From NCBI GenBank assembly GCA_050084985.1, contig JBITNC010000001.1:197966001-198030000 (forward strand): 64,000 nucleotides of DNA, given 5' to 3'. This document shows positions 3,001 through 50,172 of this stretch, piece after piece (within the stretch, counting starts at the first letter, position 1; each line of letters opens with the position of its first letter). The translations under genes and the position numbers were made by a program. Below the pieces are notes generated by a model. That model was not told the DNA's origin. It ran no database searches and was given only the letters and a program-made list of their open reading frames with translations. Origin of the DNA: Nageia nagi (Eukaryota; Plantae; Pinophyta).

Positions 3001-3075
3001 ACCAAGGATCTACCTAAGAATTGATTCTTTAGTCACCAAAATCAGCTTGGAATTCAAACCATTCATATTAAGGAA
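1..3075 (+). mobile_element. Highly degenerate Ty1/copia internal region (gag knuckle, protease, integrase, RT/RNase H remnants), 5' end outside window, interrupted at ~1270-2200 by an unrelated LTR fragment
   Basis: Protease-like WYLYSGCSNHM near 240; ORF 513-725 LWHRTCGHINF (GAG-pre-integrase); LELVHADIYGP near 770; QQNGV near 1060; ORF 2492-2719 MHSPHESHWK...ISW and IYCDN/KHIDI remnants at 2830-2920; many stop codons. Confidence 0.85.
1270..2200 (-). mobile_element. Fragment of the LTR family also found at 34016-36493
   Basis: cccctccactaaaggagccctcct (1794-1818) and gttggcctctaaggagccaact (~1697) are reverse-complement matches to motifs at ~35950-36090 and ~35230-35260; boundaries approximate. 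Confidence 0.6.
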
Positions 3076-9069: not shown

Positions 9070-11631
9070 ATTTGAGAAAATAGTTTTGATATTTTGTGAT
9101 TATGTCAAACTACCTTATTCTATAGTAGATTTCCTTATTTCCATTTGGAAAAGTGTGAATTATATTTGAAGCTTTTTTAACCAAGCCCTAGGTGTAGGGG
9201 TGTTACCATCAAACATTAGTACTTGCATATTTTGAAGGTGTTTCTTATTATAATAGTCACTTCCCCTTCCTATTTTCTTTTCCATGATATTAAGAAAACT
9301 CTTAAATGTAATTATTTTCTTGAATTCAACACTCTTACCTTAATATTGAGTGAAGTATGTATCAAGGACTTCATTAGAGTTTTCCTCTTCCTCTTGCAAT
9401 AACATAAGCATGTACAGCTTAGGTATATATGATCACATAGGATGGATGTATTCTTCCTATATGGGATTCTTGATCCCTCTTGTGCTTGTGGAGTTGGTGC
9501 AAGAGCATCCATATTCTTCACAAGTTGAGATAACAACTCTATCATGGTTGTAAATTATTATTTTGGATCAACCTCCTTTGTTATTTCCATTTCTAATTCA
9601 TTCTCACTCTCAATTTCAATCTTTAAGGAATACTTATTCCTTCTTGTGTAGTATTGATGCTTTGGCATGTAGGAATTCCTCACAAGTAGGTAGAAATTTG
9701 AGCCCTAATACCACTATAATGTACCCTTCTATGGTTTATCCAATTTAACATTCAATTCCACACTTAACCATGAATTATGGCATCAATGAACATGCTCATA
9801 AATCATCCAAAATATGCATTCAAATTGAGATGTAATAACAATAACCAAAATTGATACAAAGCTCTTATAATATGTGCATATCATTAAAATTAGGGCACAA
9901 ATCATATATGTAGCATAACATAAATATAGCTCCAAAAGTACTCAATTTGCATACATTCCCATGCATAAAGAAGATAGATTCATAACAAAAATATATAGCT
10001 ACATACATTAACATTCAATATGCAATATAAGAGCCAATATCATCAAAAATGAACCAATAATAAGTATAGGGTTTTCACAAAAGTTTTACAAGTTCTAGGG
10101 ATAATCCCAAGACTCTAAATATGTCAAATATGGCTTCAAGGTGGTGCTCATATTCCCAAGTTCTCTTAAGTGATGTGCAAGGTCTCCCAATGCCCCACAA
10201 GGGTGGTTCAAGTCTCCAAGAGCCTCCAAATATGCAATGTTAGTCTCCAAGGTCTCCAAGAGAGTGACACAAGCTTTCTTTAAGTATTCAAGCATATAGA
10301 AATACGAATAAGCCTCTTCTAGGCTAGGGAGCATCCCTAAGCCCTTGAATATAGAGAAGGGAAGCATCCCTAAACTCTAAATGATCAAAGATCAAATGCA
10401 TAAGATGATGTATTCAAATAACCAAATGCATTTCCTTTATAACATTCCAAACTTATCAATATTCCCTCCTAGGTTGGTCAACTTGTTAAGGAGCAATAAT
10501 GATTTATAATATTATTTTTATCTAAAATGGATGCATTAAAATTTTGCTTGTTATCTCACAAAGAAATAAATTAATTAAATAACCAAGTGCATAACATTGC
10601 ATGAATCAGAAATTAAATCCATAAGAAAGATTACCCAATAATCAAGCTCTCTTATTTCTATGGAGTGTATTAATCCTCTCTGGTCTATCACCTTGTTACC
10701 ACACTTAGAAATTTCTTCTCCTTTTTTACTTCTCATGAACTAGCAAAAATCTAGCTTAAAAAAAATACATAATCACTAGTCTTCCTTTTCTAAATTAAGG
10801 AAGATAGGTTACAAAATTTGGCTATAAAACATTAATTTATAATGCTACCTCATAGAGATAATTTTGGTTGTGTCCATCAACCAATCTTATCTCTTACTTG
10901 GCCTCCTCCAAGATAGCTATAACAAACGCACATTATCTCCCTTCCTATTTTAAAGGAAATAACAACTCTCTATTTTAAATATATCCCTCAACAATATTTT
11001 TTTAAAATACCAAACAAATATTACCCCAAAATAATAAAAATCCAAACACCCATATTTAGACCTCAAAATAGGGTATTGGTTGGCATTGGTAGCTTAATAG
11101 ATAGGTTCCATTTCCACGTTGAGCTTGTCCATCTCCATTCCATTAATTAACTTACAAGATCTCCCAAGATAGCTTTCCTCTAGTGTATGGGATCTAGAAA
11201 TAAGCTCACATTGGTGATGATACACATCAGCATTCAAAACTCTCCCTGATTCCTTCCACTTTGGCATGTATCTCTAAGACAAACCCTCCATTCTATGCAT
11301 GGCTATCAAGTGAGAGGTCAAATGGTATAAAGTCTATTTTTTTCCCTTTATTTTTCCCATGCATCCTCTGTTGGATTGCGAGCTCCACTCCTCACTAGGG
11401 TTATGCGTAAGAAATTTTGGCAAATCAAAATAAATGAAATAGTGGCAACACAATTTCAAAATCTTGGTGATTTTATCCAAAAATACCATAGAATTAATGG
11501 TGATATTTCAAATTTTTAAGAACTATGTTATAAAAAATTGGCTAGTTAATATCATTTTCTAAAGAAAGATAAAATTTATAGGTGAATTTGAAATATTAGT
11601 TTATATAAAATGCTCATCTTGATATTGATTG

Positions 11632-12335
11632 GATGCTCATATTTAGTAATAAGATACTCATGTTCAGTAACAAGATGCTCATCTTCTACAACAAGTTGCT
11701 TGTCTTCAGTAACAAATCCCTCCTCTTCAATAACAAGTAATTGGTCTTCAATAACAAAGTTGCTTGTCTTCAGTAACAAATCCCTCCTCTTCAATAACAA
11801 GTCATTGGTCTTCAATAACAAAGTTGCTTGTCTTCAGTAACAACTTGCTTATCTTTAGTAACAAGTCACTCATCTTGAATAATAAGTTGCTTCTCTTTAG
11901 TAAACAAGTCACTCATCTTCAGTAATAAGTTGCTTATCTTCAGTAACAAATCACTCTTCCTTAGTAATAAGATGCTCGTATTCATTAACAAGTTACTCAT
12001 ATTTATTAACAAGTTGCTCATTTGTAGTAACAAGCCATTTGTCTATAGTAATGAGTCACTTATATTTAGTTAAAAAAACTTTGGTCTTCACTAACAAGTC
12101 ACTCATCTTTAATAAAATGTTTCTCATATTCAATAACAAGTTTCTCATTTACAGTAACAAGTCACTCATCTTCAGTAACAAGTCACTTGTATTTAGTAAC
12201 AAGTTGCTTATCTTCAGTAACAAGATGCTCATCTTCAATAACAAGTCACTCATATTTAGTAACAAGTTGCTTGTGTTTAGTAACAAGATGCTCATCTTCA
12301 GTAACAAGTCACTTTTGTTCTGTAGCAAGTCACTT
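11632..12335. repeat. 21-bp minisatellite, roughly 33 degenerate units (consensus ~TTCAGTAACAAGTCACTCATC)
   Basis: AGTAACAAG recurs at 21-bp spacing; gives 7-aa periodic ORFs (SNKSLIF)n. Confidence 0.9.
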
Positions 12336-15300
12336 CTATTCTTCTCTTATAATACAGTCTTTTTTTCTTTTAGATATGCATTCTTCTTCGTATAGAACTT
12401 GGGTCTAATAGATGATTCCCTTGAGAAAATTAAAAATATTTATAAAATATAGGTGATAAGGTGTGAATTTAGTGGGGATATATTTGGCTAATTTATATAA
12501 AAAATACTTTGAAGTTATAAAATTTTGGCTAACTAACCAAGAAAAAAAATTGAACCCAAAAATATTAGGCTACCTGGGCTCGATTCGGTTTGCATAAAAA
12601 TAGCAAATTAAAAAATTAGAAATCCTAAAAAAAAGCTATTTTGCTATAAATAGCCACTATGCATTTCCCTACTCCTCATGTGGCATTGACAGCTAGACAT
12701 TAAATGGTGGATCACCTCTATACATGGTTTGAATTTTAGCAACCCAACATCAGGCTCCCTCATGTTGTCCAAGTTGTCTTTGTTATTTTGTGGGTCCCTC
12801 TTGGAAATAATCAACCTCCTATGTGACATGGATCTCCTCATTCTAACTTTGTGCCACATCAAACCTACAGATCCTCTCACATTAGGTCCACCACATTTAA
12901 CCAAGCCATCCCATTTTTGGGCCTTTCAATATAGTTTTAAAACAATAGTATTTCTTTTAAAAAAATAATATTTAATAAATAAATAAAACCCAACTAAAAC
13001 TAATCCTTCAAACCTTTATAAATCATAATCCAAAATTCATTTTTTCACACTATTCAAATTGATTAAATCATAAAGGAGAGAACTTCGATATGAAGTTCTT
13101 ATTTTGTTACTAGGTGACAATCAAATTTTAGATCAAATAATCAATTATTAAATGTACATTAAATCTCCCCTTCATGGCCAACTTGGTCAAGGAGGATTTT
13201 TGATATTAAATGGTCCCTTTGCTTAGCCAAATAGACACCAAATATGCCCTTAAATTAGGCATATGCCTCTTAGGCACAAATATAAATTAAATAATAACAA
13301 AAAGATCACAATGAATAGGCATGAGGGGGAGATGTCTAAGTATGCCAAATTGGGGATATTACATACATCAATGCAACATAATGAGAGAGGAATTAACATC
13401 TAAACTTTTATGGAAGATCACTATAAATCTCTACTTACCAAAATCTAGCTTTGTTCTTTTAATATATGTAAGAAAGAAATGATTATGTTATATTTTAAAT
13501 TCAGATTTGATTAGTTCTAGGTTGCATTATTATTCATTATTTAAGATTTAATCATGATAAATTTATCTATTTATTTTATTATTTAATTATTTAAAAAATA
13601 ATTATTATTAATTGAATAAAATTAATTTTTATTATCTATAAATTGATGAACCGAAAACTTTGTTATACAAACCTTAAGTTTGTTGATCATTGCATTTTAT
13701 GTGGAGTTTTTCATTGGAAACCTTAGGTTTTGCATGATCTTTTTTTAAAATTTTCAACAAAATTAGAAAATTTTATTGCTTTCAAATTGGTGAAAAATCA
13801 AGTTATTTTTATTTTATAAAAACATTTGTTTGCAAGAAATGCTAGATTTTAAAGGTTATTTTATTGAATTTGGTGAGTCTTTGCATCATCAAAAATTTTC
13901 TAAACCATGTATTCTTAATTAGAAACTATTTTTATCCGTAAACACTTTTTAGGATTGAATTTGGATCTTCACACTTTGTTCATTTTAGTGCTTGCGAAAA
14001 TAAAATTACACCCCAAATCAAAACACCAATATGATGTACACATATAGTTATCCTGGTTTGATCAATGTGTTCTACATCCAGCAAATAAAAATCCATTATT
14101 GTAAAGTTCATTTTACAATGTCACTTGTATGATCCTTCTTGCTTCACTCTTTTGTTTATTGAAGCTTAATCACATGATCATTATAGGCTCTCCATTGAAT
14201 CCCTTTCTTGAAGATGGCTCTCTTTTCAATGAAATTCCTTAAGCATAGTTCCACATCTTTTATCTCGAGATGACATCTTTATAACTACTCTTTGTCTTTT
14301 TTTCTTTCCATAATGGTTATTATATCATCCACTTCTTTCTCCATGGCAATAATCTTATCCATGTTCTTTTTCTTCTTCTATGCAAGCTTGAAATGCAACT
14401 CCAATATTACTCTCATAGTTTTGTTATCTTCCATCGATTTTATAATAAAATAGATTCTTCTACATTCTTTTCAAACCTACACTAACTCACTCCCCTTGGG
14501 AGTAAATTCACACTAAAGGACTTAACTTTTTTTCATACTCCTTGTTCCCTTTTATAACATTAAGGGATTACAAATTTGGAGTTTATGGTTACATGGTGAT
14601 AAGATAATATTTGTTATTTTTCCTCCTTTACAATATGCTCTCTCATCCTCAAAATAATAATCTCCCTAATTTGTACTCTTGTAGCATTATTTTCACCTCA
14701 TATGGTTATATTCTTCTATCTTTTTGGATTTTGCAAAATTGTCAAAATTGCTTCTAGTGCCATTTGGCATGACCATAACTTCATGACCATAATTCTAAAT
14801 CTCACAAAATTTGATCCAGGTGTTCTTGAATATATGTAACTTAACTGGTCCAAATTTCATGATTTAAATCCTTATTGGTAGCTCCAAGAATCATCATCAA
14901 GTTGGCCTCCAACTCAGATTTGCAACTAGCAGCTGTCAAAATTTTGACAAAGTCATGAACATAAAATGATAATTTACCATTTTGTGAGCACCATAACTTT
15001 CAATTATTTAATCCAAATGCCTTTATATTGTAACCACATATTCACCATAATATAAGGTACCATTGATTCAAATTTCATGCTATGAATCCATCAATAGAGC
15101 TTTCCATGCATATTTTGCATTTTTTATATTTAACTCCAAATTTCGAAAAGCCATAACTTACAAACCATATCTCTATTTTATTTGCCATTTGAAGAATTGG
15201 AATCATGGAAGAGAGATCTTTAATGTGGAAGAAAATAATTAACAAAATTATATACTTGAAAAATCACTTTTCTTTTAAGACTCTGAAATCCATTTCGGAT

Positions 15301-18059: not shown

Positions 18060-19211
18060 ATCACCTTATTAACCATTGCACAAAGGTATGACATACATCA
18101 CCTTTTTACCCAAGGGGAACGCACATGAGATGGAGTGTAGGACAAGTTACATTATCATATTCATTAAATACATAATGTATCTAGGGATACCCTTAACTAT
18201 TAAGTAAATTACATTAAGATACCTTACAATAATACATTATAAATTCTAACACTCCCCCTTAATACAATATTGGGGTAGAGAATAGAGAAGACAAAGAGAG
18301 AAAGAGTAAGAGAGTTCTCCTCCATAAGAATACAAGTGGAGATGAGAACTTGTAAGAAAGTAATAGAATTTATATGGTTCTACAAGGCTCAATTACTTAA
18401 CCATTTTAACAAATTATTTACAATACAATAATTAACCATAAACAGTTTCAATGTACAAGTAGTAGTTAGCCAACAAGTTGACATGATGAGCCTTCAAGAG
18501 ACTACATAGCTAAAGTAAGTAACTTACAATATCTAGAAGAAACCTCTAAGCTACCAGTAGCTTCTAACAAAACTAGTAATATACATCATTACACAATATC
18601 AAATATGATGTATATCATTAACTATAATATCTAATAATATCACATGTTCATACTAACAAGTCCTTATATATCATATGTGCAATGTGCATTATCAACCAAG
18701 TGATACATAAAAGCATTATCAAACAAGGATATATGAAATATCCACAAGTGCACAAAATGTGCACAACATGATCACCAATCATAATTTAAAAAACAAAATT
18801 GATTTTTACTTTTTTTATATCATTATTTGAGTTTATTTTTTGGTATGAAGGTATCATCGTATCATAACATGAACTCTCCTACAAATTTTTAAGAATTCTT
18901 TTACAAGACTCCTACAAGATCATTCCTATAACTCTACAAGACTAGCATTTTCATGTTTCTCCAAGTGTGTAATCTCAAAGAGAGTTACCTCTATTTATAG
19001 GCCAAAATCTTCCCTTGGATCACCCTATTAACCATTATACAAATTCATGACATGCATCACCTTTTTTACCCAAGGGACATGCACGTGATATGTAGTGTAG
19101 GATAAGTTATATTATCATATTCACTAAATACTTAAAGTATATAGAGATATCCTTAAGTATTAAGTGAATTACATTAATATATATTACAATAATGCATTAT
19201 AAATTCTAATA
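18060..19211 (-). mobile_element. Small non-coding LTR element (TRIM-like or internally deleted copia), related to the 37647-47901 element
   Basis: Two direct LTR copies starting T(G/A)TTAGAATTTATAATG on - at 19211 and 18251; PPT AAGGGGGAG at 18252-18260 on -; shares TGTTAGAATTT, CCCTTGGGT(T)AAA and TATAAATAGAGG with LTR 37647-38147; internal 18418-18560 resembles 38255-38400. Confidence 0.75.
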
Positions 19212-36493: not shown

Positions 36494-37034
36494 AAACCCT
36501 TAGTCATAATTCTTGTTTTCCTTAAAAAATTTTCATCAATGAAATTATGAGTAGCAAATTTCAACAAAAGAGAAAATATGAGAATAGTCTTGGCTAATTA
36601 CACCATGTTGCCACCACTCAAGTGCATCTCCCTTAAAATGCAACATTGCAAAATGAATTGCATCTTCTTCAATCATATTGGGGCTTAGGGTGAAGTACAC
36701 CTAGAGTTGTTGTACCTAGCCCTAGCTGTTATCTTTTTTCCATCATATATAGGTGCTTGCATTTTGTTTATCTTTTGCAGCAAATATTTCCTATCACCCC
36801 ATGAATTTCCCTAAGAACGGGTCCCATAAGAATTGTTCCCTTTCAAACCCAATAACTCCAAATAGCTACTGAAATTCACATCATTTCTTAATTTTGAATC
36901 AAGCAAGGAATAATCTTTGAAATTTTGATTTAACTCAAGAGGGTTTGGAACCCAATTTTTTACCTCATTTGAAGACCTTTTTGTAAACATAGGCTTAGGA
37001 GGCCTACGAAAGATTGGCGACTCCCCTATCTTTC

Positions 37035-37645
37035 TGTAGATGCCTAAAAATGAATTATTGTTTATTAAATAATTCATTTTAGAGCCTCAATGATGTATTA
37101 TGTACATAGGGATGAAATAATACCCTAAGTCATAATAAAGCTATGTCATATGTTTAGTGGACCCTTGTGGTATGTACAAGGGGTCAAAAAGATCAAAGTC
37201 ATGTAAAATTGTATCATATATAAAGGCATCAATTGATGACCTTAAAATTTACGGACAAACAAATATGAGGAGAACTCTAGAGAGATTCTAACACATGATA
37301 CATCACTCTGTTATGCTCACATATTATTCATAAGTTACATTCTTAGGTTCACTATCTGATGATTATTTCGTTCAGTCGTCGCTATATTCTTTCTTGTATT
37401 TGTTTTATTGCTTATCTTAAGCCGTCAATGGCGTGCCAAATATAGGATGCCAATGGCGTGCAATTAAATGAATATATGCTTGTCTTTCATGTATGTTTCT
37501 CTTAATGGAATGAATATGTGATATGATTAAACACAAGTATTTTTCTATTATGCGTTATTCCAATATTTCAGATATATGCATCAAAAAGAAACAAGTAGAC
37601 CAATACATCCCTATAAACAATTATATGCATTATTTTGGGACTACA
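37035..37645. mobile_element. 611-bp solo LTR, TSD CTTTC
   Basis: TGTAGATGCCTAAAAATG...CATTATTTTGGGACTACA with imperfect inverted termini; CTTTC at 37030-37034 and, displaced by the copia insertion, at 47906-47910. Confidence 0.8.
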
Positions 37646-37646
37646 C

Positions 37647-38147
37647 TGTTAGAATTTGTAATGAAATATTGTGAATATCTAAACTCCTTGTAAGTTCAAT
37701 TAATCACTTAAAGGATATGTAGATACCTTAAAGGATTAATTGAATTCTTTATTATGTGTGGACTTTGACCTAACTATGGGGTTAGTTGGTAGGTTAAAGT
37801 TAGGTCACACATTTATTGTAACCCTAACCTTACCCTTGGGTTAAAGGGAGGTTAGGGAGGTGCTCTCACATTATAAATAGAGGGCCTCTCCTCTTGTAAA
37901 GACATCTAAGTTTTGAGTAAGATTACTCTACTAGGTTGTGTAAGAGAGAGCAAGAGAAAAGTTGTAAGAGGCATAGATTGAGAATAGAGAACTAGTTGTG
38001 GATGTACTCCCAAGGAGGGAGGAACCACACTATATTGGTGTCATATTGTGGGAATGTGTTAGTAGCTTGTAGATGTTGCATGTTGAATGTGATTGAGCTT
38101 TCTATAGTCTTGGACCTTTGGGAATTAGATCTAGGCTAATTCCATCA
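37647..38147 (+). repeat. Intact 5' LTR (501 bp)
   Basis: TGTTAG...CCATCA; TATA-like box; immediately followed by a PBS. Confidence 0.93.
37872..37879 (+). promoter_or_regulatory. Putative LTR TATA box (TATAAATA)
   Basis: TATAAATAGAGG in mid-LTR; the same motif is conserved in the related LTR at ~18988-18999 (- strand). Confidence 0.7.
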
Positions 38148-38149
38148 AG

Positions 38150-38161
38150 TGGTATCAGAGC
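38150..38161 (+). promoter_or_regulatory. Primer binding site for initiator tRNA-Met
   Basis: TGGTATCAGAGC 2 nt after the LTR-terminal CA. Confidence 0.92.
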
Positions 38162-38570
38162 TTGGTGTAGAAGCTCTTCTTCTACATCTTGGAGGTTCTT
38201 CATCCTTCTCAAATTTGGAGATCTTAATCCTAATCTTCATTGTGAGGTAAATGGTTTACAATACAATCATTAACCACAACTGGTTTCACTGTACATAGTA
38301 GTCGATCAACTTTAAGCTGACATGTGAGTCTCCATGAGCTTGCTTTCACAAGGTGAGTAACCTGCATTTCTGAAGATCCTGCATGCTACAAACAACTTAT
38401 GAACAAAATCAGTTAGATGCATCATATATTCAAATAAGAGAATCAAATAATGCTATCTTATAAATAACTGATTAATGGTGCACTATAAGTCATCACGGAG
38501 ATGCTAAGCCATCACTCATAGTCACCTGTTGTATATAGACATGTGTTGATTATTAATAGAGCATAAAATT

Positions 38571-39003
38571 TGTACAACGAGTTTCTCACGCAGAGCAAAC
38601 TCACAACAGAGGTATAGAATGTACAACAAGTTCGTCACGCAGAGCGAACTTACCACGGAGGTATATTAATTATATGCTCAAATATTGTACAACGAGTTTC
38701 TCACGCAGAGCAAACTCACCACGGAGGTATAGAGCATCAAAATTGTACAACGAGTTTCTCACGCAGAGCAAACTCACCACGGAGGTATAGAATGTACAAC
38801 AAGTTCGTCACGCAGAGCGAACTTACCACGGAGGTATATTAATTATATGCTCAAAATTTGTACAACGAGTTTCTCACGCAGAGCAAACTCACCACGGAGG
38901 TATAAAATGTACAACAAGTTTGTCACGCAGAGCAAACTTACCACGGAGGTATAAAAATGTACAACAAGTTAGTCACGCAGAGCAAACTTACCACGGAGGT
39001 ATA
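38571..39003. repeat. Array of 8 ~45-bp hairpin-containing repeats with 4-21-bp linkers, in the copia 3'UTR
   Basis: Core TGTACAACRAGTTHSTCACGCAGAGCRAACTYACCACGGAGGTAT at ~38571, 38620, 38686, 38744, 38793, 38859, 38908, 38958. Confidence 0.95.
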
Positions 39004-39074
39004 TCATAATCAACAAATGGTATACAACAACAAAAGAGCCTCTTAGAGGTGAAGTTGTCATCATTAACAAAGGT

Positions 39075-42000
39075 TCAAACTTCACTCCCCCTTGAGGGCA
39101 ACTTCACCAACCCGAGAGAATCCCTAAGCTTGCTGAACTGAGCTTCAGGAAGGGGCTTGGTGAATAGATCAGCGGAGTTTTCAGTAGATGGACAATACTC
39201 CAAGTGTATGATGTCATCTAGAACCTTCTCCTTGATAAAATGGGCTTGGATTTCCACATGTTTGGTTCTCTGATGGAACACAGGATTCTTAGCCAAAGAG
39301 ATAGCCGATTGATTATCTGAAGAAATAAGAGATGGGTCATTTTGCTTATACCCAATTTCGTTCAGAAGATGTCTTAGCCAAATAGCTTCTTGGGCGGCAA
39401 CAGACATGGCTCGATATTCGGCTTCGGTGGTAGAAAGAGTCACAGTAGGTTGCTTCTTGGAAGCCCAAGAGATAGCACCTGAACCAATGTTGAACACATA
39501 TGCAGAGGTTGATTTTCTGTCATCTCTATCTCCCCCATAATCAGAATCTGAAAACCCTGAGAGAACAATTAAGGGCACTTTGGAATACTTAAGAGCAAGA
39601 TCCTTTGTCCCTGCCACATACCTCAAGATTTGCTTCACAGCATTGAGGTGTTCAATATATGGTTTTTGCATGAATCGTGCCATCAGATTCACTGCAAAGG
39701 CAATATCAAGACGAGAGATAGTCAGATACAGAAGACTACCGATCAATTGCCTATAAGTTGTAGCATCGGCCAACTGAGAATCTGAGCTCAGTGATACAAC
39801 GATTCCAGGAGAAACAGGTATTGTAGCATATCTACCCTCCTCCATTCCAAACTTTTGCAAGATGTCTGATATATACTTAGATTGACTAAGATAAGTACAA
39901 TCTTTGTGTTGGTATACTTGCATTCCAAGATAGTAATGCAATAGACCTAGATCAGTCATTTCAAATGTTGCCTTCAGTTTGGATATGCACTCTTGGATGA
40001 TTTCAATATTGTTGCCTGTTATCAGAAGATCATCCACATAAAGGAGAATTAAGACCACGTCTTTTCCTTGATTGAGTACATAGAGATCTGAGTCGGAGAA
40101 GCACTTGGAAAAACCAATATCTGCAAAGAATCCTGAAATTTTCTTGTACCATGCTCTAGTGCTTGTTTAAGTCCATACAAAGACTTCTTTAGTTTGCACA
40201 CAAGAGACTCTTTTCCTTCTGGAATAAATCCTTCTGGTTGATTCATGTAGATTTCTACATCCAAGTCACCATTGAGAAATGCACTCTTGACATCAAGTTG
40301 GAAAACTTTCCATCCCTGAGCTGCAGAAGAGCAAGGATTATCCTAACAGTAGGCATTTTGGCCACAGGAGCAAAGGTTTCCTCATAATCAATACCATATT
40401 TCTGAGCGAATCCTTTGGCCACTAACCTTGCTTTGTATTTTTCAACTTCTCCATCAGAATTGTACTTGACCTTGTAAATCCATTTATTTCCAATCACATT
40501 TTTCTCATTGGGATAAGGAACCAAATCCCAAGTTTCATTTTTCATGAGTGCCTCGTACTCAACTTTCATAGCTTCCATCCAACACTCTTGCTTGCAAGCT
40601 TCTTTGAATGTTGATGGCTCATTCATATTATCAATTTTGGCAAATAAGGATTTATTCAAGGTCATACTTCTTGTAATTCTCTGAGCTGGAGAATTTTGCT
40701 CTTGTGGTGACTTCCCTACATGATCATCCAACCAGTTAGGTGCAAGCATAGAATCTTCTGAATCAGACACCTCAGCATGAGAAGTCGTATCCTCAGGAAG
40801 TTCATTGAACTTGACATCCCTAGAAACAAAGATTGTTTTATGAGATGAGGAGTAGAGCCTGTAACCTCTATGCTGATTATCATACCCCACAAAGATGCAT
40901 TTTTTTGATCTTTTGTCTAGCTTCTTTCTTTTCTCTGAGGTAATGAAGGCAAATGCATCACATCCAAAGACCTTGAAGTGTGAGATGTTAGGTTTCTTTC
41001 CTGTCCATGCTTCATACGGAGTTTTTCCTTTAACTGCTTTAGTAGGACACCTATTAAGGGTGTGAATAGCAGTGTGAACAGCTTCTCCCCATAAGAAACT
41101 AGGAAGGTTACCCAACATGCATCTTGCCATTTCCATAATGGTGCGATTCTTTCTTTCAGCAACTCCATTTTGCTGAGGGGTGTAAGGGATTGTGAATTGT
41201 CGCTTGATCCCATGTTTAACACAATAATCGTTAAACTCATTGCTATTATATTCACCCCCATTGTCAGATCTCAGCATTTTGATCTTAAAATCAGTTTGAT
41301 TTTCAACAAGTGCCTTGAAGTCCTTAAATCGATCAAGAGTTTGATCCTTGTGCTCAAGTAGATAACCAAATGTCATCCTACTGAAGTCATCAATGAAGGT
41401 CAGAACATAAGAAGCTCCCCCTAGAGACTTAGTCTGAATTGGACCCATCAAATCTGAATGCACTAGCTGAAGAGGACGAGTAGCCCGAGTTGCCTTATCC
41501 TTTTCAAACTTTTGCCTATTCATCTTTCCAAGAATGCACCTTTCACAAAGACCAATTGTGGGTGAAATATTAGGTAAACCTTCCACAAGTTCTTGATTTT
41601 TCATATCTTGAATACTCTTGTGGTTAAGGTGCCCTAATCATTGATGCCAAAGATTACCTTTTGAACACACATTTGTAGCAAGACAAATCTTTGAAGGTAC
41701 TTGATCCACAATATAAAGGTCATTCTTTACTGATCCTTTCATCAAAGTGGCAAGTCCTTTCTTAACACACCAGGAGTGTGAGGTAAACTCAAATGAGCAT
41801 CTTGTCCTTGTAATCTGAATTACCGAGATAAGATTCATCCTTAGTTTAGGCACATAAAAGACATTATCAAGTGTCTTTCCATGAATCTTCACATTCCCTA
41901 TTCTTTGAACATCAAGGACTGTATTATCACCTATCACAACTGTATCCTTGTTGTACTTATGAAAATTTTCAAACTTATCCTTTTCATAACACATGTGATT

Positions 42001-42600
42001 AGTGCATCCTGAATCAATAATCCAATCATTTGAAATAGTTTGAGTCATTGAGTAGTAGGCAACAGAAGCAGCATGCTTGTTCTTCTTTTTATTATTGAAA
42101 TTTCTCACATTTGCATTTCCCTTTCCTTTTTGAGCAAATTTCTTTTTGCGACAATCATACTCTTTGTGCCCAAAGATGCCACAGAAGTTACAATTCCCAT
42201 CAAACTTTTCCTGCGGTGTTGGTTTGCTTGATCTAGCTTTGTCATTCCTTTGCTTGAAGTTGTTGTGCTTCCTGATGGTAGATGAGAATTTGTTGTCTTT
42301 GAATTTATAATGTTTGAACGTTTATTGTAAGGAGTTTTGGTTGCTCCTAGAGCAATGCTATTATACTTTGGAGAAATGTTCAACATTTTCTTGTTCAAAG
42401 CTTCCTCATGTTTCAGAAGTAGTCTAGAAAGATTGTCAAGGGAGATAACATCTTCTTCATCATCGAGCCTAGTCTCCATAACTGTGACAAAGTTACTGAA
42501 CTTTGTAGAGAGGCTTTGAAGAATAATGAAGACCATGAACTCATCATTGATCCAATTGCACCCACAGCCAACCAGTTGTGTCCTGAGGTCAATGATTTGT
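39075..42600 (-). pseudogene. Ty1/copia gag(C-terminal)-protease-integrase-RT-RNase H polyprotein with few lesions, 5'-truncated
   Basis: gag IIDLRTQLVG...IILQSL; knuckle CNFCGIFGHKEYDC (~42153-42194); WIIDSGCTNHM; LQLVHSDLMGP, LRSDNGGEY, PQQNGVAER; KARLVAKGF; LYGLKQA; YVDDLL; RTKHVE, ADLFTK. Domain order PR-INT-RT-RH is copia. One stop (41638) and about 3 frameshifts. Confidence 0.96.
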
Positions 42601-43681
42601 GTCAAAATCAAAGCTGTCAAGCCACAGCTTCCACCTTAATAACCTGGTTTGACTGACCACATTGTCAGTAGCAACCTTGAAAAATCCCATTGCATGCTTA
42701 AGATCAGTTCTTATCAAAAATCTTTCTGACATCACAAACAAAGAGAATGTTTTTATTCCTTTGACAATGGCTAACAATTCTTTATGAGTACTGGGGTACC
42801 TTTTTTCTGTATCTGTGAATGCCCCTGAGGCATATCTACAAATGACTTCTGCAACTTTTCCTCCAGGAGCTTCTTCTTGTTCTTTTAATACGGCTCCCCA
42901 ATATTCAGCAGAAGCATCTGTTTGTATCACCTTTTTCCCTGTTCCTGGAATTCTCAAAGCAGGTAAATTAGCACATTTTTTCTTTATTCTTTTCACTGCA
43001 TCTGTATGTGCTATACTCCAGGATTTTGGATTCTTAGTTAATCTCTGATTTAATAACTGTCTATCTTGAGCCAAATGACTATACCAACCAGAGATAAAAT
43101 TGACACATCCTAAAAATCTTTGTAATTGTGTCCTATCCAAAATCTCATCAGGGAATTGCTTTAAATTAGAAAAAATATGTTCTTGTAACCTGATGGTACC
43201 ATTCTGTAGATGTACTCCCAGATACTTGATGTCAGCTTTGCCAATCTCCATCTTTTGTTCTGAAAGCACCAGCCCATTAGTATACACCAAAGAATAAAAC
43301 TGCTCAAGGTGGATGATATGTTCTGAAACAGAATTGCTGTAAACTAAAATATCATCAATGTATACTATTATGAAATGGGCATAGTCTTTAAAAATTTCAT
43401 CCATTGTTGCTTGGAATATACTGGGTGCTGTTTTAAGACCAAAAGGTAGTACAGTCCACTGATATAAGCCTCTAGGAACTATAAAAGCTGTTTTAGGCTT
43501 ATCTTCTTCTCTCAGTTTGATTTGCCAAAACCCAGATTTCAAATCAAATTTAGAAAACACTTTAGCATGCTGAATCCTCTTAATGATTTCATCTTTTGAA
43601 GGCAGAGGATGTTTAACTGGTTTTATGAGTTTGTTTAAAGGTTGATAATTAACTACTAACCTTTTCTTGCCATGTACTTGC
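42601..43681 (-). pseudogene. Caulimovirid reverse transcriptase plus RNase H (RNase H C-terminus cut at ...WLDSFDFD)
   Basis: ORF 42589-43560 extends upstream in frame to 43681; PFGLKTAPSIFQ, VYIDDILVYS, LQRFLG, TDAS, KELLA, IRTD. Confidence 0.93.
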
Positions 43682-46072
43682 TCAGCTCTTGTTTACATAA
43701 AACGCATGGCAAGCAAACTCATTGTTGCTTTTTTCTATTAATCCTTTCTGCAGGAGTTCTTTGATTTCCTGGGCACACTCCTGTTGTGCTGAGGGGCTCA
43801 TCCCTTTATGATGTGCTTTTTGCTGTGGCAATTTCTCAACATCTAGTGAGATGGTACAGGTGTTTACCTTTCTGCTCCAGAATGCTGTAGGATCATTACT
43901 GCACAGATTTCTCTTAATCTTTTCTGTGATAGTCTGAAAAGCAGTATGATTAGTATGAATTTGTTTATACAACCAATCTGATTTGAATTCTTTCACCTTC
44001 TGATTTAAGGGGATTCTGACAATATTTTTTAACACCCTTGGAATAATCAGATTTTGGTTTAATATAAACTTATCTGCAAGGACCTGGAAACTCTCAAATT
44101 GACCAATGAAATCATATCCTAATAACAGATCATACGTTGGTATTTCATGAGAAGCAACAGTAATAGGATATATCTTTTTTCCTATCATTACTGGTAGTGA
44201 AGCTTCTACAGGGGATATGACTTTTTGTGTATTAAACACAATTCTATTGGTTCCAGGTTTCCACAGATCTACTGGGCATATATGATATCTAGCAAGACTT
44301 AATGATGCACCAGTATCCATTAATGCATGCACCTTATAGGGTTTATACCCATCATATTTTAAAGAAATCTCAGCAACAGGCATATGGGGTTTATCATTCA
44401 TATTTACCTCATGTTGCTGGCTAGGTGCTTCTTCATCTTGTGTTTCTTGAGTAAGGAGCCCTTGCTGTGCCTCGAGCTGTTCAGCTTCTTCATACAAGGC
44501 TTCTTCATACTCAAGATCCTGAGCAAACTGGGTTTCTTCTGCTACCAGCTCATCTAATTCCTTTTGTGCACGTTCCAGGAATCTGCTCAACTTCTCTATT
44601 CTAGAGATCCTCCATTCTGTTCTCTTGGCTATATCTTTTTTAGAAGGAACAGTTAATGTTTGAGCATATTTATCAAAAATGGAGGAAGGTCTTGGTGGTA
44701 TTACCTCAGGACAGTGTAACTGTGCTTTGACATCAGGAGCACAGGGTACCACTGGGCTTTTACCCTTCTTCTTATTCAAATCCTCTTCTGCTTTTCTTTT
44801 AACCTCTCTTTCCCTGAACTGTCCAAATTCAAGTACACCAATAGGTTCTGGAGAAGATGCTCTGGAATGTACTTGTTTTGACTGTGAGGGCCACAATCCT
44901 TCTTCATGCAGGCTGGACAGATCTTCATGGATAGCTTTCTTATGTTTGTCACGATTAGTTCCCCAGAAAGCTCTACACTGTTGAGTAACATGGCTTTTCA
45001 ATCCACACTGTGCACAAGGAAGATGTGGTCTGACAACTGGTCTACTAGGAGGAGAAAGAGGAGTATACACAGGTGCTGATTGTTCTGAAGATTGTACTTG
45101 CAGAGCACGCTGAGTTTGGATTTGAATATTGCGTTGCTCTACTTCTTCACGTTTCTGCTGGAGTTTCAGGGCTTCAATGTGTTGAAGAGTGAGCTTATGG
45201 ATTAGATCAGAGAGATTATGACGTTGATGGATTAAATGAGGAGGTAAGGACTCAAGTTGTTGAGTCAGGTTGAGAATTTGGATTTTGATTTGTTCAGGAT
45301 TTTGGAACAGTGGATTATATTGATTGGTACTGGGAGTAGCAGTATTCATGAATATAGGATTGTAATAATCAAGAGAGGAATCTATACAAAATCCTTTGTC
45401 AGACAGATCATCATTCTCAAACATATTTACATGATCTGACATGTCAGAATCAGAAGTTTCTGAATTCACATTGATTTCTGCACTAGAAGAACTTATAGAA
45501 GAATCTTCACATTCATAATTATAATGAACTTCAAAATCAGAGCATACTGATTCTAATTCAATGTCATAACTGCCTGAATCTGAATAACACACAGTATGTA
45601 CAAAATTAACTTTGGCAGTACCTTTCTTTGTACTTCTCTGAGGACATTTGGAGGCATAATGTTGGCCTTTGCAAATGTAACAGGAGACTGCCCCTCCTGC
45701 CTTCCTTCTTTTAGAAAACCTCTTGAATCTGAATTTAGGTTTTCTTGTGGCTTCCCTTCTGTACTTCATCTTTTTTCTTCTTTTCTTTTTCTTGCACTTG
45801 CAAGAGAAGGATCCACACTTGCAGCCTTTATACTTTTTCTTGGAAGACTTTCTGCCATAGTATTTGTCCTTACAACCAAATTGATTAGTTTCATGGTCAA
45901 GACAGAATTTATCTAACATCTTATTCTTTTTAGACTGTACTTTAGTCTTTCTTTCAGCACACAAGTCATTATGAACAGAAATGATGTACTGTCTTAACTG
46001 ACCAAATGTAAGATTTGCAAGAACAATATTACCTTTCCTCTTAAGGTACTCTTGTTTGAAGTATTTTGGCAT
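43682..46072 (-). pseudogene. Caulimovirid polyprotein middle part: CP C-terminus, Zn knuckles, coiled coil, aspartic protease, RT N-terminus
   Basis: 796-aa ORF; CYICKGQHYASKC (45644-45682), CAQCGLKSHVTQQC (44975-45016), LMDTGASLS (~44310), LLLGYDF, EIKELLQKGLIEKS; frameshift at ~43685. Confidence 0.9.
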
Positions 46073-46084
46073 GCCCTCCAGAAG

Positions 46085-47695
46085 CTAGACTTTGTAAGCT
46101 TCATTATACACTTCTCTGCTCTGATAGTACCATTGCTGCATTTTATTAAGGTACTCAGGCAGTTTCTTCATGGAGCACAATCTGGCGCCCATAAAAGCAT
46201 TCTTGCCCAGTTGTATGTCATCTGCAATATCTCCTACAAACTCTGTACCTACTGCTGCTAGTAGGTTTACATGACTGCCGCCAAGCCTATCTTTTGAATC
46301 TTGGTGCAGGCTATTCCACCAGTTGGCCAGATTGCCATTAAAACCTGTAATCAAAATAGAGTAAATTTGCTCATTTGTCATATGATTACCTTCATATTGG
46401 AATGCTGCCCAACCATACATGGCTCGCAGTACTTTGTTGGCTTCTTCACGGCTCATGTTGTCCATGTTCCAAATCATGGGTCCTGACAAGGCTTTTGGAA
46501 CATTAGGGAGATCTTGCATTCTTTTGTCTGTGGGAATAGTGAATCCTCCCACAGGATCATGTTCTGCCACAGCACTGGATTCTTCATCATGATAGCCAAT
46601 AGACAGTCTAGAGCCTTGCTCCATGTGTATATATTTTTCCCTTTCAGCTCTAGCCTTAAAATAAGGTGACAGAGGAGTCTTGATTTCTCTTTTAGCTTCT
46701 TCCTTTGCTTTGGCTCTCCTCTCTGCTTCTAGTTCTTCGAACTGCCTCTGCTGTGCTGTAATAACATCTTCAAAAGAGGCTTCACTCTTTCCATGAGGTC
46801 TTCTAACAGGAGGTGGAGGAGTGAGAACTTTTTCTATCTTATGAAATTCATGTTCTGTTCTTGAAGCATTTCTCTGTACAGAAACAGTAAGATTATCAAG
46901 AACAGGAGCAATAGCAGTTACCTTTTCCTCAACGGAGGCCAAACTTTCTTCAACCTTTTTCTGCTGCTCTTCTTTGGCTTTTCTTCGTGCTTCTTTTGCA
47001 GCAAGAGCATTGGCTGTCATTCTTTGTGCTTCTGCCCATCTTTCTTGAAGATTTCTTTGATTATCCACTATCTGCTGTTGAGACTTGCGCAGTTCAGCAA
47101 TGTCTGCATAGATTTGTCTGGAAGTTCCGTACACATTGTGTACACCCAAATTAGTCCAGGTGGCCAGCTTTTCTCCCATGGTATGCTTGCTTGCATCCTG
47201 GCTGGTTCTGACGAATGAATAGGCAGTTTCATGCCCATCATCGTCCTTATAAGTAATATCTTCCAATTTGGGGAAAGATAATGACAAACCCTTTTTTGAA
47301 CTAGTTCCTGCACTAGTTTCTTCAGTGGATATCATGTTACAAAATTTAGTAGGGCAGTTAACCTTCTTATTGCATATATCACACATATGTACATCAGCAT
47401 TATGAATACAGGTATTGACGGTATTCTGTACATACCCTTTCTTGCTTTTCAAAGCAAGATATGCAGCAACTTGAGCTTGGATTTTGTCTGCTCTTTCTGG
47501 AGGAAACATTCTGATGCTTCCATCTGACATTTGAACAGGAACTAAGGAGCTTTGAGGGACAAACTCCTTTTCTTCTGTCTCTTCCTCTTGATACATAGGT
47601 TTGGTTGGAACACGAGCTGAGCTGCTTCTTTTGAAGGAAATGGCTGAATGATCTGAGTCAATGTGACGAACATCTTTACCAAGTCTGGCAGTAAG
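46085..47695 (-). pseudogene. Caulimovirid polyprotein N-terminal part: possible movement-protein tail, coiled coil, coat protein core
   Basis: Same frame as the 43682-46072 ORF, separated by a single TAG (46085-46087); CP motif; AISFKRSSSAR resembles the segment after the MP domain in such viruses (inference). Confidence 0.85.
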
Positions 47696-47901
47696 TACTA
47701 GGTTGTGTAGGAGAGAGCAAGAGAAAAGTTGTAAGAGAGGCATAGATTGAGAATAGAGAACTAGTTGTGGATGTACTCCCAAGGAGGGAGGAACCACATT
47801 ATATTGGTGTCATATTGTGGGAATGTGTTAGTAGCTTGTAGATGTTGCATGTTGAATGTGATTGAGCTTTCTATAGTCTTGGACCTAGGCTAATTCCATC
47901 A
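47696..47901 (+). repeat. Truncated 3' LTR (first ~282 bp and PPT missing)
   Basis: Matches 37929-38147; ends CCATCA followed by TSD TACAC. Confidence 0.93.
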
Positions 47902-50172
47902 TACACTTTCCAACATCCACATCCAAGAATCTCCCTAAGAGAGTATTTGTCCCACGTGGCGCTCTATGACAGTGAAATCTCAAAAAAGCATGCTCTTGGT
48001 GACTCATGGACCCATGATGTGTGGATCCTCTGTGCGATCTTTTCATGTTATTTGCTCTTTCACTCGTTTCTTCATCTTTTGGATCATCCTCATCTTCAGA
48101 AATAGAACGTGGAAAATTAGGGTTCCTAGTGTTCCTTTTTGGGGCCTTTTATTTCCCAAACCAAGCATCCATCTTGGTCTTTTGGTTCTGCACCACCTCT
48201 ATCATGTTTTTCATTGATGTAAAGAGATCATTGAATTTTCTTTCTAGCATGGACTCTTTGGTTGTATATCCGTATTAGATCTAACCTCAACGAAAATATC
48301 CCAACAATGCCTTGACTGGACATTTTGCTCCACAAGTCTAAAAATGTTTTTAAAACATTGAAACGGCCCTTCCAATGCTAGACGCTTGATTCCAAGGGTC
48401 GACTAGGTATCTATGATGCATAGAAAAATTCCAACAAAACCCTCAATGCTAGATCTAAACTCATGTAGCCAAATGTATCCTCAAACTTGCTCAATCTTCC
48501 TCTTAAGACTAGACGTTCCACCTTGGGCTCAATATGCCTCCACATCTGACCTGAAATTGCAAACTTCAATCTCTCCAATGGCAGATATGGGATATAAAAT
48601 TAGTCTTTTCAGCAATGAATTGTAAATGCAAACCCTGGATGGATTTGCCTCTCAAGTAGGTAGATAGCTCTAGGGTTTTATCCCTCAAGCCTCTAGAGGC
48701 TTTGATCCTCTAGGAACCCCAATAATCTCTTGCAAAATTTCCAATGTACAAGAGCCAAAATAAATGGCTAGCCACAATAATATTCTCCCAAGGAAACAAC
48801 AATATTCTCAATAGTCTGATCTCACAAATGAAATGCTTCCTCCTTTATATAAACAATACTCCTCATTAGGGTTTCTAAAAACATCCTTTAGATCCAACGC
48901 ACCATGTTGCTCCATGTTGGGGATTAAGTCTCCATCATTAGATGCTCAAGATTGAATCCCCACATGGATGGCCCACAATCACTTAAAAGGTTATTCAAGC
49001 ACATGCTTAAATAAAAGTACTAATGTATTTGGCATATTATAATGTTACTTTATAAAAAAAATAAAAACATATCCCTTAAATACTTTTCCACTTCACTAAA
49101 ATAACTGTAAAGCACTTCTAACTTGTCCAAGAGGATGGACATTTCTCCCTTGGAGATACTTATTCAACACTTAGACAAAAACAAGATAATATTTACAATG
49201 CTACCAAGGAACAACATAATCACTCAATTCATGTCAACATCCTTGTTTTGCACCACCAATTAGAATCTCGTAAAATCATGGGACACAAGAGGAGATAAAC
49301 ACTTCAGCACACCCGCACTCAACTTACAACAACAGACTTTTGCTCTACCTCTCTTTGAGTGACAACATTGTGAAGAATAATTGGTACTGTAAGGCAATCT
49401 AACACTGTAGTCCGAAAAACCCAATTGGCATCCTTTGCAACAAGCATGAACCTAACTATATTTACAAGTATATGCATGGTTTATGAAGATCCAATATAAT
49501 AGATTGAAATGGAGAATTATAAGGTATAAAAAGAGAAAATACAAAGGATGAATCCGGACCTATATATTTGTGTTGAGTCTTTCTAATCCTTTGAGCAACC
49601 ATGCATTACAGGAAATGTAGAATTTGATTAAACCATTTTTGTCAGAGTTCAATTCAACGAACCCTAAAATTAGAAATTTTTCCATTGCTTCCGAGGCATT
49701 TGTGTAGCTCCAAGGATATAAAGTGAAGGAAGGAGTCATTGTTGTTTCTCTTAATTTCTAACTGCAAGAAGGGTCCATTCTGAAGGGACTTTTGAAAGCA
49801 TCAAACATTCTAAGGGTGACTTCTTGAAAAAAAATTTATCATTCTATTTTTTTTTATCTTGCGGTGAGAGGGCCTTCCCAAAGATCAATGTTTTATGAAT
49901 TTTTCATCACATTTAAAATTATATGGATAACAGGTATCAAAAACAAGAATACTACAAGACCCACTAATAACATTATACCATTTCAAAAGAGCAACAAAGA
50001 AAACCTTGTCTTCTCAATTTATTTTAAATATTTGACTGCATTACACAAGGTATGCTGAGTTATCATCTTATGAGCCCAAGAATACTGTGTACCACCCCAT
50101 AAATGCAATGTAACAAAAAAAATAGTAAAAACATATTTAGGAACTTTTATGAAGTAGAATAAAATAGTATAC

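What the first reader, a model, noticed from the sequence alone, without database searches (positions are those of the whole stretch)
37647..47901. Copia LTR element that has captured 5.1 kb of a pararetrovirus: one TSD-bounded unit with two unrelated RT/RNase H genes
Seen: a single TSD pair (TACAC) and near-identical LTR ends enclose a copia gag-pol and a caulimovirid CP-AP-RT-RH segment, joined directly at ~42600/42601. The viral DNA replaces the gag N-terminus on one side and the PPT plus the first ~282 bp of the right LTR on the other. Known: Caulimoviridae lack an integrase and enter genomes by illegitimate recombination or break repair, and reverse transcription regenerates two complete LTRs. 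Inference: the virus was captured in place after the copia inserted, as filler at a break inside the element. The low LTR divergence (2 substitutions in ~204 bp) would then give an upper age bound for a recent infection. AGTAAG at 47690-47695 also occurs in the left LTR just upstream of the breakpoint and may be the microhomology used.
Basis: partly seen in the sequence, partly recalled or inferred. Interest (0 to 1): 0.9.

Follow-up and report, generated by a model that had tools for sequence, protein, structure and literature searches.

The report
Flipped retrotransposon fused to plant virus
This is a dead 10-kb copy of a plant jumping gene whose coding middle is flipped and joined to 5 kb of a plant DNA virus; the pieces were likely stitched together while the element copied itself and then inserted as one unit, although repair of breaks in place is nearly as likely.

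Summary
The unit is real: one TACAC target duplication, TG/CA ends, a Ty1/copia gag-pol and 5.09 kb of a caulimovirid (RT groups with Caulimoviridae; closest relative has a movement protein). Relatives show the normal order 3'UTR-PPT-LTR in 6 of 7 contigs. So there are three junctions. Here the right LTR starts 13-26 nt after the predicted transcription start, virus and copia coding strands share polarity, and one relative also has an LTR start fused to an inverted interior. I lean to a chimera made by template switching and inserted by copia integrase (0.45) over in-place repair with viral filler (0.35) or two steps (0.13). No listed contig bridges any junction, so the assembly is unconfirmed. 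Age is about 2 My (0.3-8) at the gymnosperm rate. New variant of a known kind; a testable case for an open question on how plant pararetroviruses integrate.

The parts
36552..37034 (.). Older repeat D, left part; ends in CTTTC (37030-37034), the left target duplication of solo LTR E
   Evidence: 80% match to paralog 31284-30814; sequence
37035..37645 (+). Solo LTR E of another family (TG..CA); the copia inserted at its right end
   Evidence: Repeat boundary at 37035 in X9 loose ends, start also in L003; right end inferred from the CTTTC duplication
37642..37646 (+). Left target-site duplication TACAC
37647..38147 (+). Complete 5' LTR, 501 bp; TATA box at 37872 (LTR position 226), transcription start predicted near 37900-37908 (position about 257)
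   Evidence: start site predicted from TATA spacing, not measured
38150..38161 (+). Primer-binding site for tRNA-iMet (motif assignment from general knowledge); fixes the element's orientation as +
38162..38248 (+). 5' UTR stub; junction J1 at 38248/38249
   Evidence: Homology to family 3'UTR begins at 38249 in 6 of 7 loci, 38250 in L003
38249..39074 (-). Copia 3' UTR, inverted; holds 49/173-bp tandem repeats (38556-39004); its last 159 bp and the true PPT are lost
39075..42605 (-). Copia gag(C-terminal part)-PR-IN-RT-RH, inverted; 363 bp of gag lost; 4 frame breaks (frameshifts near 42250-42320, 40327 and 40160; stop at 41638-41640); second purine tract at 39085-39093 shared with relatives
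42601..42605 (-). Junction J2: copia matches to 42605; viral RNase H codons overlap by 2 nt for certain and 5 nt if the Asp codon is viral
   Evidence: Asp follows F-x-F in 25 of 68 motif-bearing relatives
42606..43824 (-). Caulimovirid RT and RNase H, cut about 15 codons before the usual end; frameshift near 43685-43692
43844..44368 (-). Caulimovirid aspartic protease (Peptidase_A3)
   Evidence: E 1.7e-8
44975..46860 (-). Coat-protein region: DUF7746 (about 46289-46471), CX2CX3HX4C knuckle at 45682, second CX2CX4HX4C knuckle at 45016; in-frame stop at 46085-46087
46861..47695 (-). Open-frame viral segment without a recognised domain; weak match to a Taxus element up to 47449; no movement-protein domain captured
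47690..47696 (+). Junction J3: AGTAAG (LTR positions 270-275) then LTR position 283
47696..47901 (+). Truncated 3' LTR (positions 283-501; predicted to be R-U5 only), intact CA end
47902..47906 (+). Right target-site duplication TACAC; overlaps CTTTC (47906-47910) of E
47906..48244 (.). Older repeat D, right part, continuing the paralog at 30816-30482

Best explanation
The locus is one copia insertion with a full left LTR, an inverted interior, 5.1 kb of caulimovirid sequence and a right LTR cut to its last part, and it was likely assembled by template switching during reverse transcription in a virus-infected cell and then likely inserted whole by copia integrase. Shown: the anatomy, the inversion, the three junctions, the single TSD with both integrase ends, the viral identity. 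Inferred steps: (1) minus-strand synthesis on copia RNA ran from the 3' end into gag and switched to viral RNA at J2 (same polarity, as in copy choice); (2) a minus strong-stop DNA (R-U5 only) paired with the viral end of that cDNA at the AGTAAG look-alike instead of the 3' R (J3), which gives the U3-less right LTR and flips the copied part; (3) synthesis returned to copia RNA just behind the PBS (J1) and the normal second transfer supplied a full left LTR; (4) integrase inserted the product, making TACAC. The product lacks a PPT and is predicted to be immobile.
For: Right LTR begins at position 270-283, 13-26 nt after the predicted start near 257; a random cut in a 501-bp LTR lands in such a 30-nt window about 6% of the time (arithmetic, post hoc). 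HIV-1 precedent for intact 5' and U3/R-deleted 3' LTRs made in reverse transcription (PMC9278108). Virus and copia coding strands share polarity, the pattern read as copy choice in mosquito EVEs (10.1101/127498). The other two copia breakpoints lie near priming sites: 87 nt behind the PBS and 159 nt before the LTR start. 1 of 7 relatives (L006) has LTR positions 1-28 with a clean TG end fused to an inverted 3'UTR just before the PPT. Short overlaps at J3 (35 of 5045; gapped 90 of 5030) and probably J2, as in LTR-mediated chimeras (PMC5131818). No (TA)n run within 100 nt of any of the 3 junctions. Both LTRs share two letters that differ from all listed family depth at 47726 (3 of 4 runs) and nearly all at 47820, so they are one insertion.
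Against: The transcription start is predicted only. Three aberrant switches are needed, and packaging of caulimovirid RNA in copia particles was not shown in anything I read. Short overlaps are equally expected from end-joining repair. Frame breaks are fewer in the virus (2 in 5.09 kb) than in the copia (4 in 3.53 kb), which leans to a younger virus, though p = 0.19. The 7 LTR bases after AGTAAG are missing, which needs an extra slip or a later deletion. The virus is antisense to the LTR promoter, unlike standard LTR-mediated capture. L006 is one metagenome contig with its other end unseen and could be a later inversion. Illegitimate recombination is the route most reviews favour (PMC8256270). 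No listed contig bridges a junction.
Confidence: 0.45

Rival explanations
1. Capture in place: a normal copia inserted first; later two breaks, near the gag start and near the PPT, released the interior, which rejoined inverted with losses of at least 363 and 441 bp, and viral DNA was caught as filler at one join.
For: Break repair with viral filler is one of the two standard hypotheses (PMC10377300 section 3.1) and ECVs sit in TE-rich DNA. Short overlaps fit end joining. Fewer frame breaks in the virus. Losses on both sides of both cuts look like resection.
Against: It needs both breaks to fall by chance next to the LTR borders, the right one at the predicted U3/R border, and the filler to share polarity with the flipped gene. 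No (TA)n at the junctions. The truncated LTR is no proof of a post-insertion event.
Confidence: 0.35
2. Two steps: an inverted-interior copia (like L006) arose first, by reverse transcription or by later inversion, and the virus was added afterwards as filler at a break that removed the old gag/LTR join.
For: L006 shows an inverted interior without virus; the virus may be younger.
Against: The viral break would have to hit the earlier junction; the age difference is not significant.
Confidence: 0.13
3. Misassembly joined unrelated repeats.
For: No listed contig bridges any of the 3 junctions (most records not shown).
Against: No N in the window; two nested target duplications and the collinear host repeat close correctly across 10.3 kb; both LTRs share rare letters.
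Confidence: 0.04
4. A mobile chimeric family, or a Ty3/gypsy rather than a virus.
For: Two RT/RNase H genes between LTRs; RT also resembles Ty3 RT (168 bits).
Against: No PPT and no full right LTR; listed family contigs that reach 42605 (2 in X2, 2 in X3) and 47696 (1 in X3, 2 in X15) go on in copia sequence. RT is split from 3 gypsy-type rows at 100/99 support; CaMV RT scores 310 bits; closest relative has a movement protein and no integrase.
Confidence: 0.03

Closest known systems
Endogenous banana streak GF virus next to a Ty3/gypsy element (Gayral et al. 2008; known to me only through PMC10377300 passages)
   Same: Caulimovirid DNA linked to an LTR element; chimera-then-integration proposed; dated by LTR divergence; one-step versus two-step left open.
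   Different: Here the partner is Ty1/copia, the host is probably a conifer, the virus is a 5.1-kb fragment inside one TSD-bounded unit, the interior is inverted and the right LTR lacks U3.
LTR-mediated retroposition by template switching (Tan et al. 2016, PMC5131818 passages; maize Bs1)
   Same: Foreign sequence replaces part of the interior between LTR ends; short overlaps at the joins; both ends kept for integrase.
   Different: Cargo is a DNA virus, antisense to the LTR promoter; interior inverted; no PPT, so no second round is predicted.
Asymmetric-LTR HIV-1 proviruses (Joseph et al. 2022, PMC9278108)
   Same: Intact 5' LTR, 3' LTR losing U3 and sometimes part of R with the loss starting upstream; rare inversions; integrated normally.
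   Different: No foreign sequence; their model is a deletion during minus-strand synthesis, not a switch to another virus.
Virus-LTR chimeras in mosquitoes and LCMV-IAP in mouse (10.1101/127498 passages; Geuking 2009 cited there, not read)
   Same: Viral sequence in the same polarity as the retroelement's coding strand, read as copy choice.
   Different: Those are RNA viruses with gypsy, Pao or IAP partners in animals.
Gymnosperm clade-B endogenous caulimovirids (Gymnendovirus 1-4 and newer OTUs; PMC5766536, PMC13308828)
   Same: RT falls with Ginkgo, Taxus and Cryptomeria elements (91/85, not starred); single-frame CP-AP-RT-RH order.
   Different: Best RT-core identity 61% to an unnamed protein and 57% to Ginkgo, under the 62% OTU cut; two zinc knuckles where 3 of 4 relatives checked have one and one has none by the same pattern; OTU not assignable without the reference set.
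Autointegration inversion circles of Arabidopsis copia SISYPHUS (PMC7197481 passages)
   Same: Copia particles do yield molecules with an inverted part between LTRs.
   Different: Those joins use LTR ends and give circles; here all three joins are internal and both ends are joined to host DNA.

Membership tests
Caulimoviridae (endogenous caulimovirid) | RT-RNase H groups with Caulimoviridae, not Ty3/gypsy | tested here: met
   Tree of 34 rows, 100/99 split from 3 gypsy-type rows, two of them partial; CaMV 310 bits vs Ty3 168
Caulimoviridae (endogenous caulimovirid) | Order coat protein with zinc knuckle, aspartic protease, RT, RNase H | tested here: met
Caulimoviridae (endogenous caulimovirid) | 30K movement protein | tested here: inconclusive
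   Not in the captured part; the segment starts downstream of where P0124 carries it at residues 40-194
Caulimoviridae (endogenous caulimovirid) | No integrase after RNase H | tested here: inconclusive
   Segment is cut inside RNase H; P0124 ends right after RNase H with no integrase domain
Caulimoviridae (endogenous caulimovirid) | tRNA-Met priming site, circular DNA, virions | not testable with these tools
   Intergenic part not captured; only a 2-mismatch look-alike inside the coding region
Named gymnosperm OTU (Gymnendovirus 1-4 or newer) | At least 62% RT identity to OTU members | tested here: inconclusive
   Best 61% (unnamed), 57% (Ginkgo) among 31 proteins compared; OTU reference sequences not in hand
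Ty1/copia LTR retrotransposon | gag-PR-IN-RT-RH order with RVT_2 | tested here: met
Ty1/copia LTR retrotransposon | TG..CA ends, PBS, 5-bp target duplication | tested here: met
Ty1/copia LTR retrotransposon | Two full LTRs with a PPT before the 3' LTR (intact element) | tested here: not met
   3' LTR lacks positions 1-282; no PPT there
Ty1/copia LTR retrotransposon | Coding region in the same direction as LTR and PBS (intact element) | tested here: not met
   Inverted; normal order in 6 of 7 relatives
Template-switch chimera inserted by LTR integrase | Both integrase ends and one TSD enclose the cargo | tested here: met
   also expected under capture in place
Template-switch chimera inserted by LTR integrase | Short shared sequence at the switch points | tested here: inconclusive
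   J3 6 nt with a 7-nt gap; J2 2-5 nt inferred; J1 unknown, family 5'UTR not obtained
Template-switch chimera inserted by LTR integrase | No virus-free allele of the insertion; virus and LTRs of equal age | not testable with these tools
   No genome held; frame-break counts do not reject equal age, p = 0.19
Break-repair filler ECV | (TA)n or AT-rich simple repeat at the insertion site | tested here: not met
   No (TA)4 within 100 nt of 3 of 3 junctions; common, not required
Break-repair filler ECV | Pre-existing target allele without virus | not testable with these tools
   Needs population or sister-species data

The most novel reading that the evidence does not exclude
A fossil of a plant pararetrovirus carried into a genome by a Ty1/copia: viral RNA copied inside a copia particle, a strong-stop DNA jumping onto the viral cDNA, and the hybrid inserted by copia integrase. 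It would be a nucleotide-level case of the retrotransposon route of caulimovirid integration, from a conifer copia family that also throws off inverted-interior copies.
Probability: 0.45. Interest if true: 0.75.

Novelty: new variant of a known kind. Interest (0 to 1): 0.55.

Why it matters
A 2023 review calls the mechanism of caulimovirid capture speculative, with break repair and LTR-retrotransposon integration as the two hypotheses (PMC10377300 section 3.1). This locus has sharp junctions, a known empty site and opposite predictions under the two models, so one PCR survey can decide it. It also yields a searchable signature (full left LTR, right LTR starting at R, one TSD, viral cargo) for large conifer genomes, and warns that a truncated LTR does not prove a later event. 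If the in-place model wins, it is an ordinary endogenous virus fragment in a rearranged repeat (interest about 0.25).

Tried and rejected
No genome held, so copies and alleles could not be counted. My first reading, two nested elements with the 3'UTR as a second LTR, was rejected. No RNA holder listed. Most viral bins have no contig cover in the 7 runs laid; this is no evidence of absence, and summed depth is no copy number. Two contigs of a guessed-RNA run end near the predicted start site; contigs cannot show a start, so I did not use this. Viral-contig scans found no relative of either RT or of the LTR-PBS motif; the prokaryote genome scan found nothing, so the family 5'UTR and any J1 overlap are unknown. 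An ungapped 15-nt match at J3 was not above background (1926 of 5045). The first 400 residues of the upstream viral frame gave no hit among 1.84 billion representatives or in the Atlas, and its first 120 residues did not align to P0124 above shuffles, so I cannot say whether AGTAAG is viral or LTR-derived. CG/CHG ratios lack a baseline and were not used. Autointegration was rejected because no join uses an LTR end. Three look-ups of earlier findings gave nothing. Gayral 2008 was not held. No structure or complex prediction was needed.


Full report
1. Observation. The unit 37647-47901 (10,255 bp) is bounded by TACAC on both sides and by TG and CA. The window has no N. The duplication is genuine: flanks 36552-37032 and 47906-48244 are contiguous in a paralog at 31284-30482, and between them lies a 611-bp solo LTR (37035-37645) with its own CTTTC duplication, at whose right end the unit inserted. 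The right LTR equals LTR positions 283-501 with 2 substitutions in 204 aligned bases, a 2-bp and a 15-bp indel. Pfam gives copia gag-PR-IN-RT and viral DUF7746, Peptidase_A3, RVT_1 and RNase H.

2. The inversion. A primer-binding site follows the left LTR on +, but gag-pol runs on -. A scan of metagenome contigs with a 3'UTR motif returned 7 loci; they may come from one campaign and from other host species. L001 is 81% identical to 38951-42598 and shows gag-pol, 3'UTR, 159 more bases with the PPT, then an LTR start matching 37647. A PPT followed by TGTT lies 173-184 nt past the motif in 6 of 7 loci, and the same order holds in a relative at 18.2-18.7 kb of the window. So LTRs and interior are one family and 38249-42605 is flipped here. 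Lost: 363 bp of gag plus an unknown part of the 5'UTR, and 441 bp of 3'UTR, PPT and LTR.

3. The virus. RT-RNase H scores 310 bits against CaMV RT and 168 against Ty3 RT. In a 34-row tree it lies among 31 rows split from 3 gypsy-type rows at 100/99, in a 9-row group with Ginkgo, Taxus and Cryptomeria elements at 91/85, not starred. The closest relative, P0124 (56%), has a movement protein, RT, RNase H and no integrase and is collinear from 46837 down. The fragment runs from behind the movement-protein region to about 15 codons before the end of RNase H, with one stop and one frameshift. Best RT-core identity is 61% of 31 proteins compared, under the 62% OTU cut of PMC13308828; the OTU stays open. 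The host is probably a conifer (inference from these relatives and air-metagenome holders).

4. Other samples. In 7 runs laid, the copia parts are covered by tens of thousands of contigs; the virus by few, among them 202 nt with 2 differences and 156 nt with 4. No listed contig bridges a junction, and most records were not shown. Listed family contigs that reach 42605 or 47696 go on in copia sequence. This argues against a mobile hybrid family but does not confirm the assembly.

5. Junctions. J1 (38248/38249) is 87 nt behind the PBS; overlap unknown (searches found no family 5'UTR). J2: copia to 42605; viral codons overlap by 2 nt, or 5 if the Asp is viral, the commonest residue there (25 of 68 motif-bearing proteins, 113 examined). 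J3: the last 6 viral bases match LTR 270-275; 35 of 5045 viral positions do as well, and 90 of 5030 in a gapped test, while an ungapped 15-nt test was not significant; the next 7 LTR bases are absent. The TATA box is at position 226, so the start is predicted near 257 and the right LTR would be R-U5 only. No (TA)n at any junction.

6. Mechanism. Both main models need three irregular joins. Here the cut at the predicted U3/R border, the shared polarity of virus and copia coding strands, the closeness of J1 to the PBS, and L006 (LTR 1-28, clean TG end, fused to an inverted 3'UTR at a short palindrome just before the PPT) fit events in a copia particle. I therefore put template switching plus integrase insertion at 0.45. 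Against it: predicted start only, no shown co-packaging, fewer frame breaks in the virus (2 in 5.09 kb vs 4 in 3.53 kb, p = 0.19), and break repair is the favoured route in reviews. In-place repair 0.35, two steps 0.13, misassembly 0.04, other 0.03. These odds are judgement, and the positional arguments are post hoc.

7. Age. 2 of 204 gives 2.2 My (0.27-8.05) at 2.2e-9 (rate from PMC12122422), 0.38 My at 1.3e-8 (rate from the Cupressus preprint) and 7.2 My at 0.68e-9 (rate recalled, no call). Gene conversion would bias these down.

8. Prior art. Chimera-then-integration was proposed for banana eBSGFV with a Ty3/gypsy and questioned as possibly two-step. Eight searches of the open library listed no copia-caulimovirid unit with an inverted interior in titles or abstract openings; subscription papers are not covered. 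What I saw of each paper: PMC10377300 passages and section 3.1; PMC13308828 abstract and the phylogeny section; PMC9278108 passages and part 1 of 2 of the discussion; PMC5751070 abstract; passages only of PMC5766536, PMC12122422, PMC6894440, PMC7197481, PMC8256270, PMC5131818, 10.1101/127498, 10.1101/2020.12.02.407783 and 10.64898/2026.07.23.736688; Gayral 2008 and Geuking 2009 second-hand. No supplements opened; those of PMC13308828 bear on the OTU.

9. Verdict. A real, single, predicted-immobile locus; new variant of a known kind. Interest 0.55: a cheap, decisive test case for an open question, ordinary if repair in place is shown.

Noticed in passing
L006:2728-2755: Family relative with LTR positions 1-28 (clean TG end on unrelated DNA) fused to an inverted 3'UTR at a short palindrome just before the PPT; would fit a fold-back right after plus-strand priming. 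Other end not in the contig.
   Followed up: partly
window 18082-19209: Diverged relative of the same copia on -: partial LTR, 3'UTR, PPT, partial LTR, with no PBS or gag-pol; a deletion derivative.
   Followed up: partly
window 39085-39093; L001, L002, L003: The family keeps a second purine tract at the end of pol, like the true PPT about 0.8-1 kb further on; possibly the older PPT before the 3'UTR grew, or a second priming site.
   Followed up: no
window 38556-39004: 49/115/173-bp tandem repeats in the 3'UTR, much shorter in L001.
   Followed up: no
window 45016-44975: Second zinc knuckle between coat protein and protease; 3 of 4 relatives checked have one knuckle, one has none by the same pattern.
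   Followed up: partly
window 46861-47695: Open viral frame with a Cys/His-rich stretch and a coiled-coil-like part, without a hit in Pfam, representatives or the Atlas.
   Followed up: partly
window 37030-37645 and 47906-47910: The copia inserted within the last 4 bases of a solo LTR, splitting it from its target duplication: a clean three-layer nesting.
   Followed up: yes
window 3779-9069 and 2216-3054: Two older copia elements: one on - with LTR pairs 75-94% alike and a PBS near 8525, one RT remnant on +.
   Followed up: no
window 11609-12370: Array of about 36 units of 21 bp.
   Followed up: no
window 38162-38209: Family contigs in 2 runs show this 5'UTR stretch duplicated in tandem (joint 38209 back to 38162).
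   Followed up: no
L002:1939-2607: A second fragment of the family in opposite direction 1 kb from another copy's LTR.
   Followed up: no
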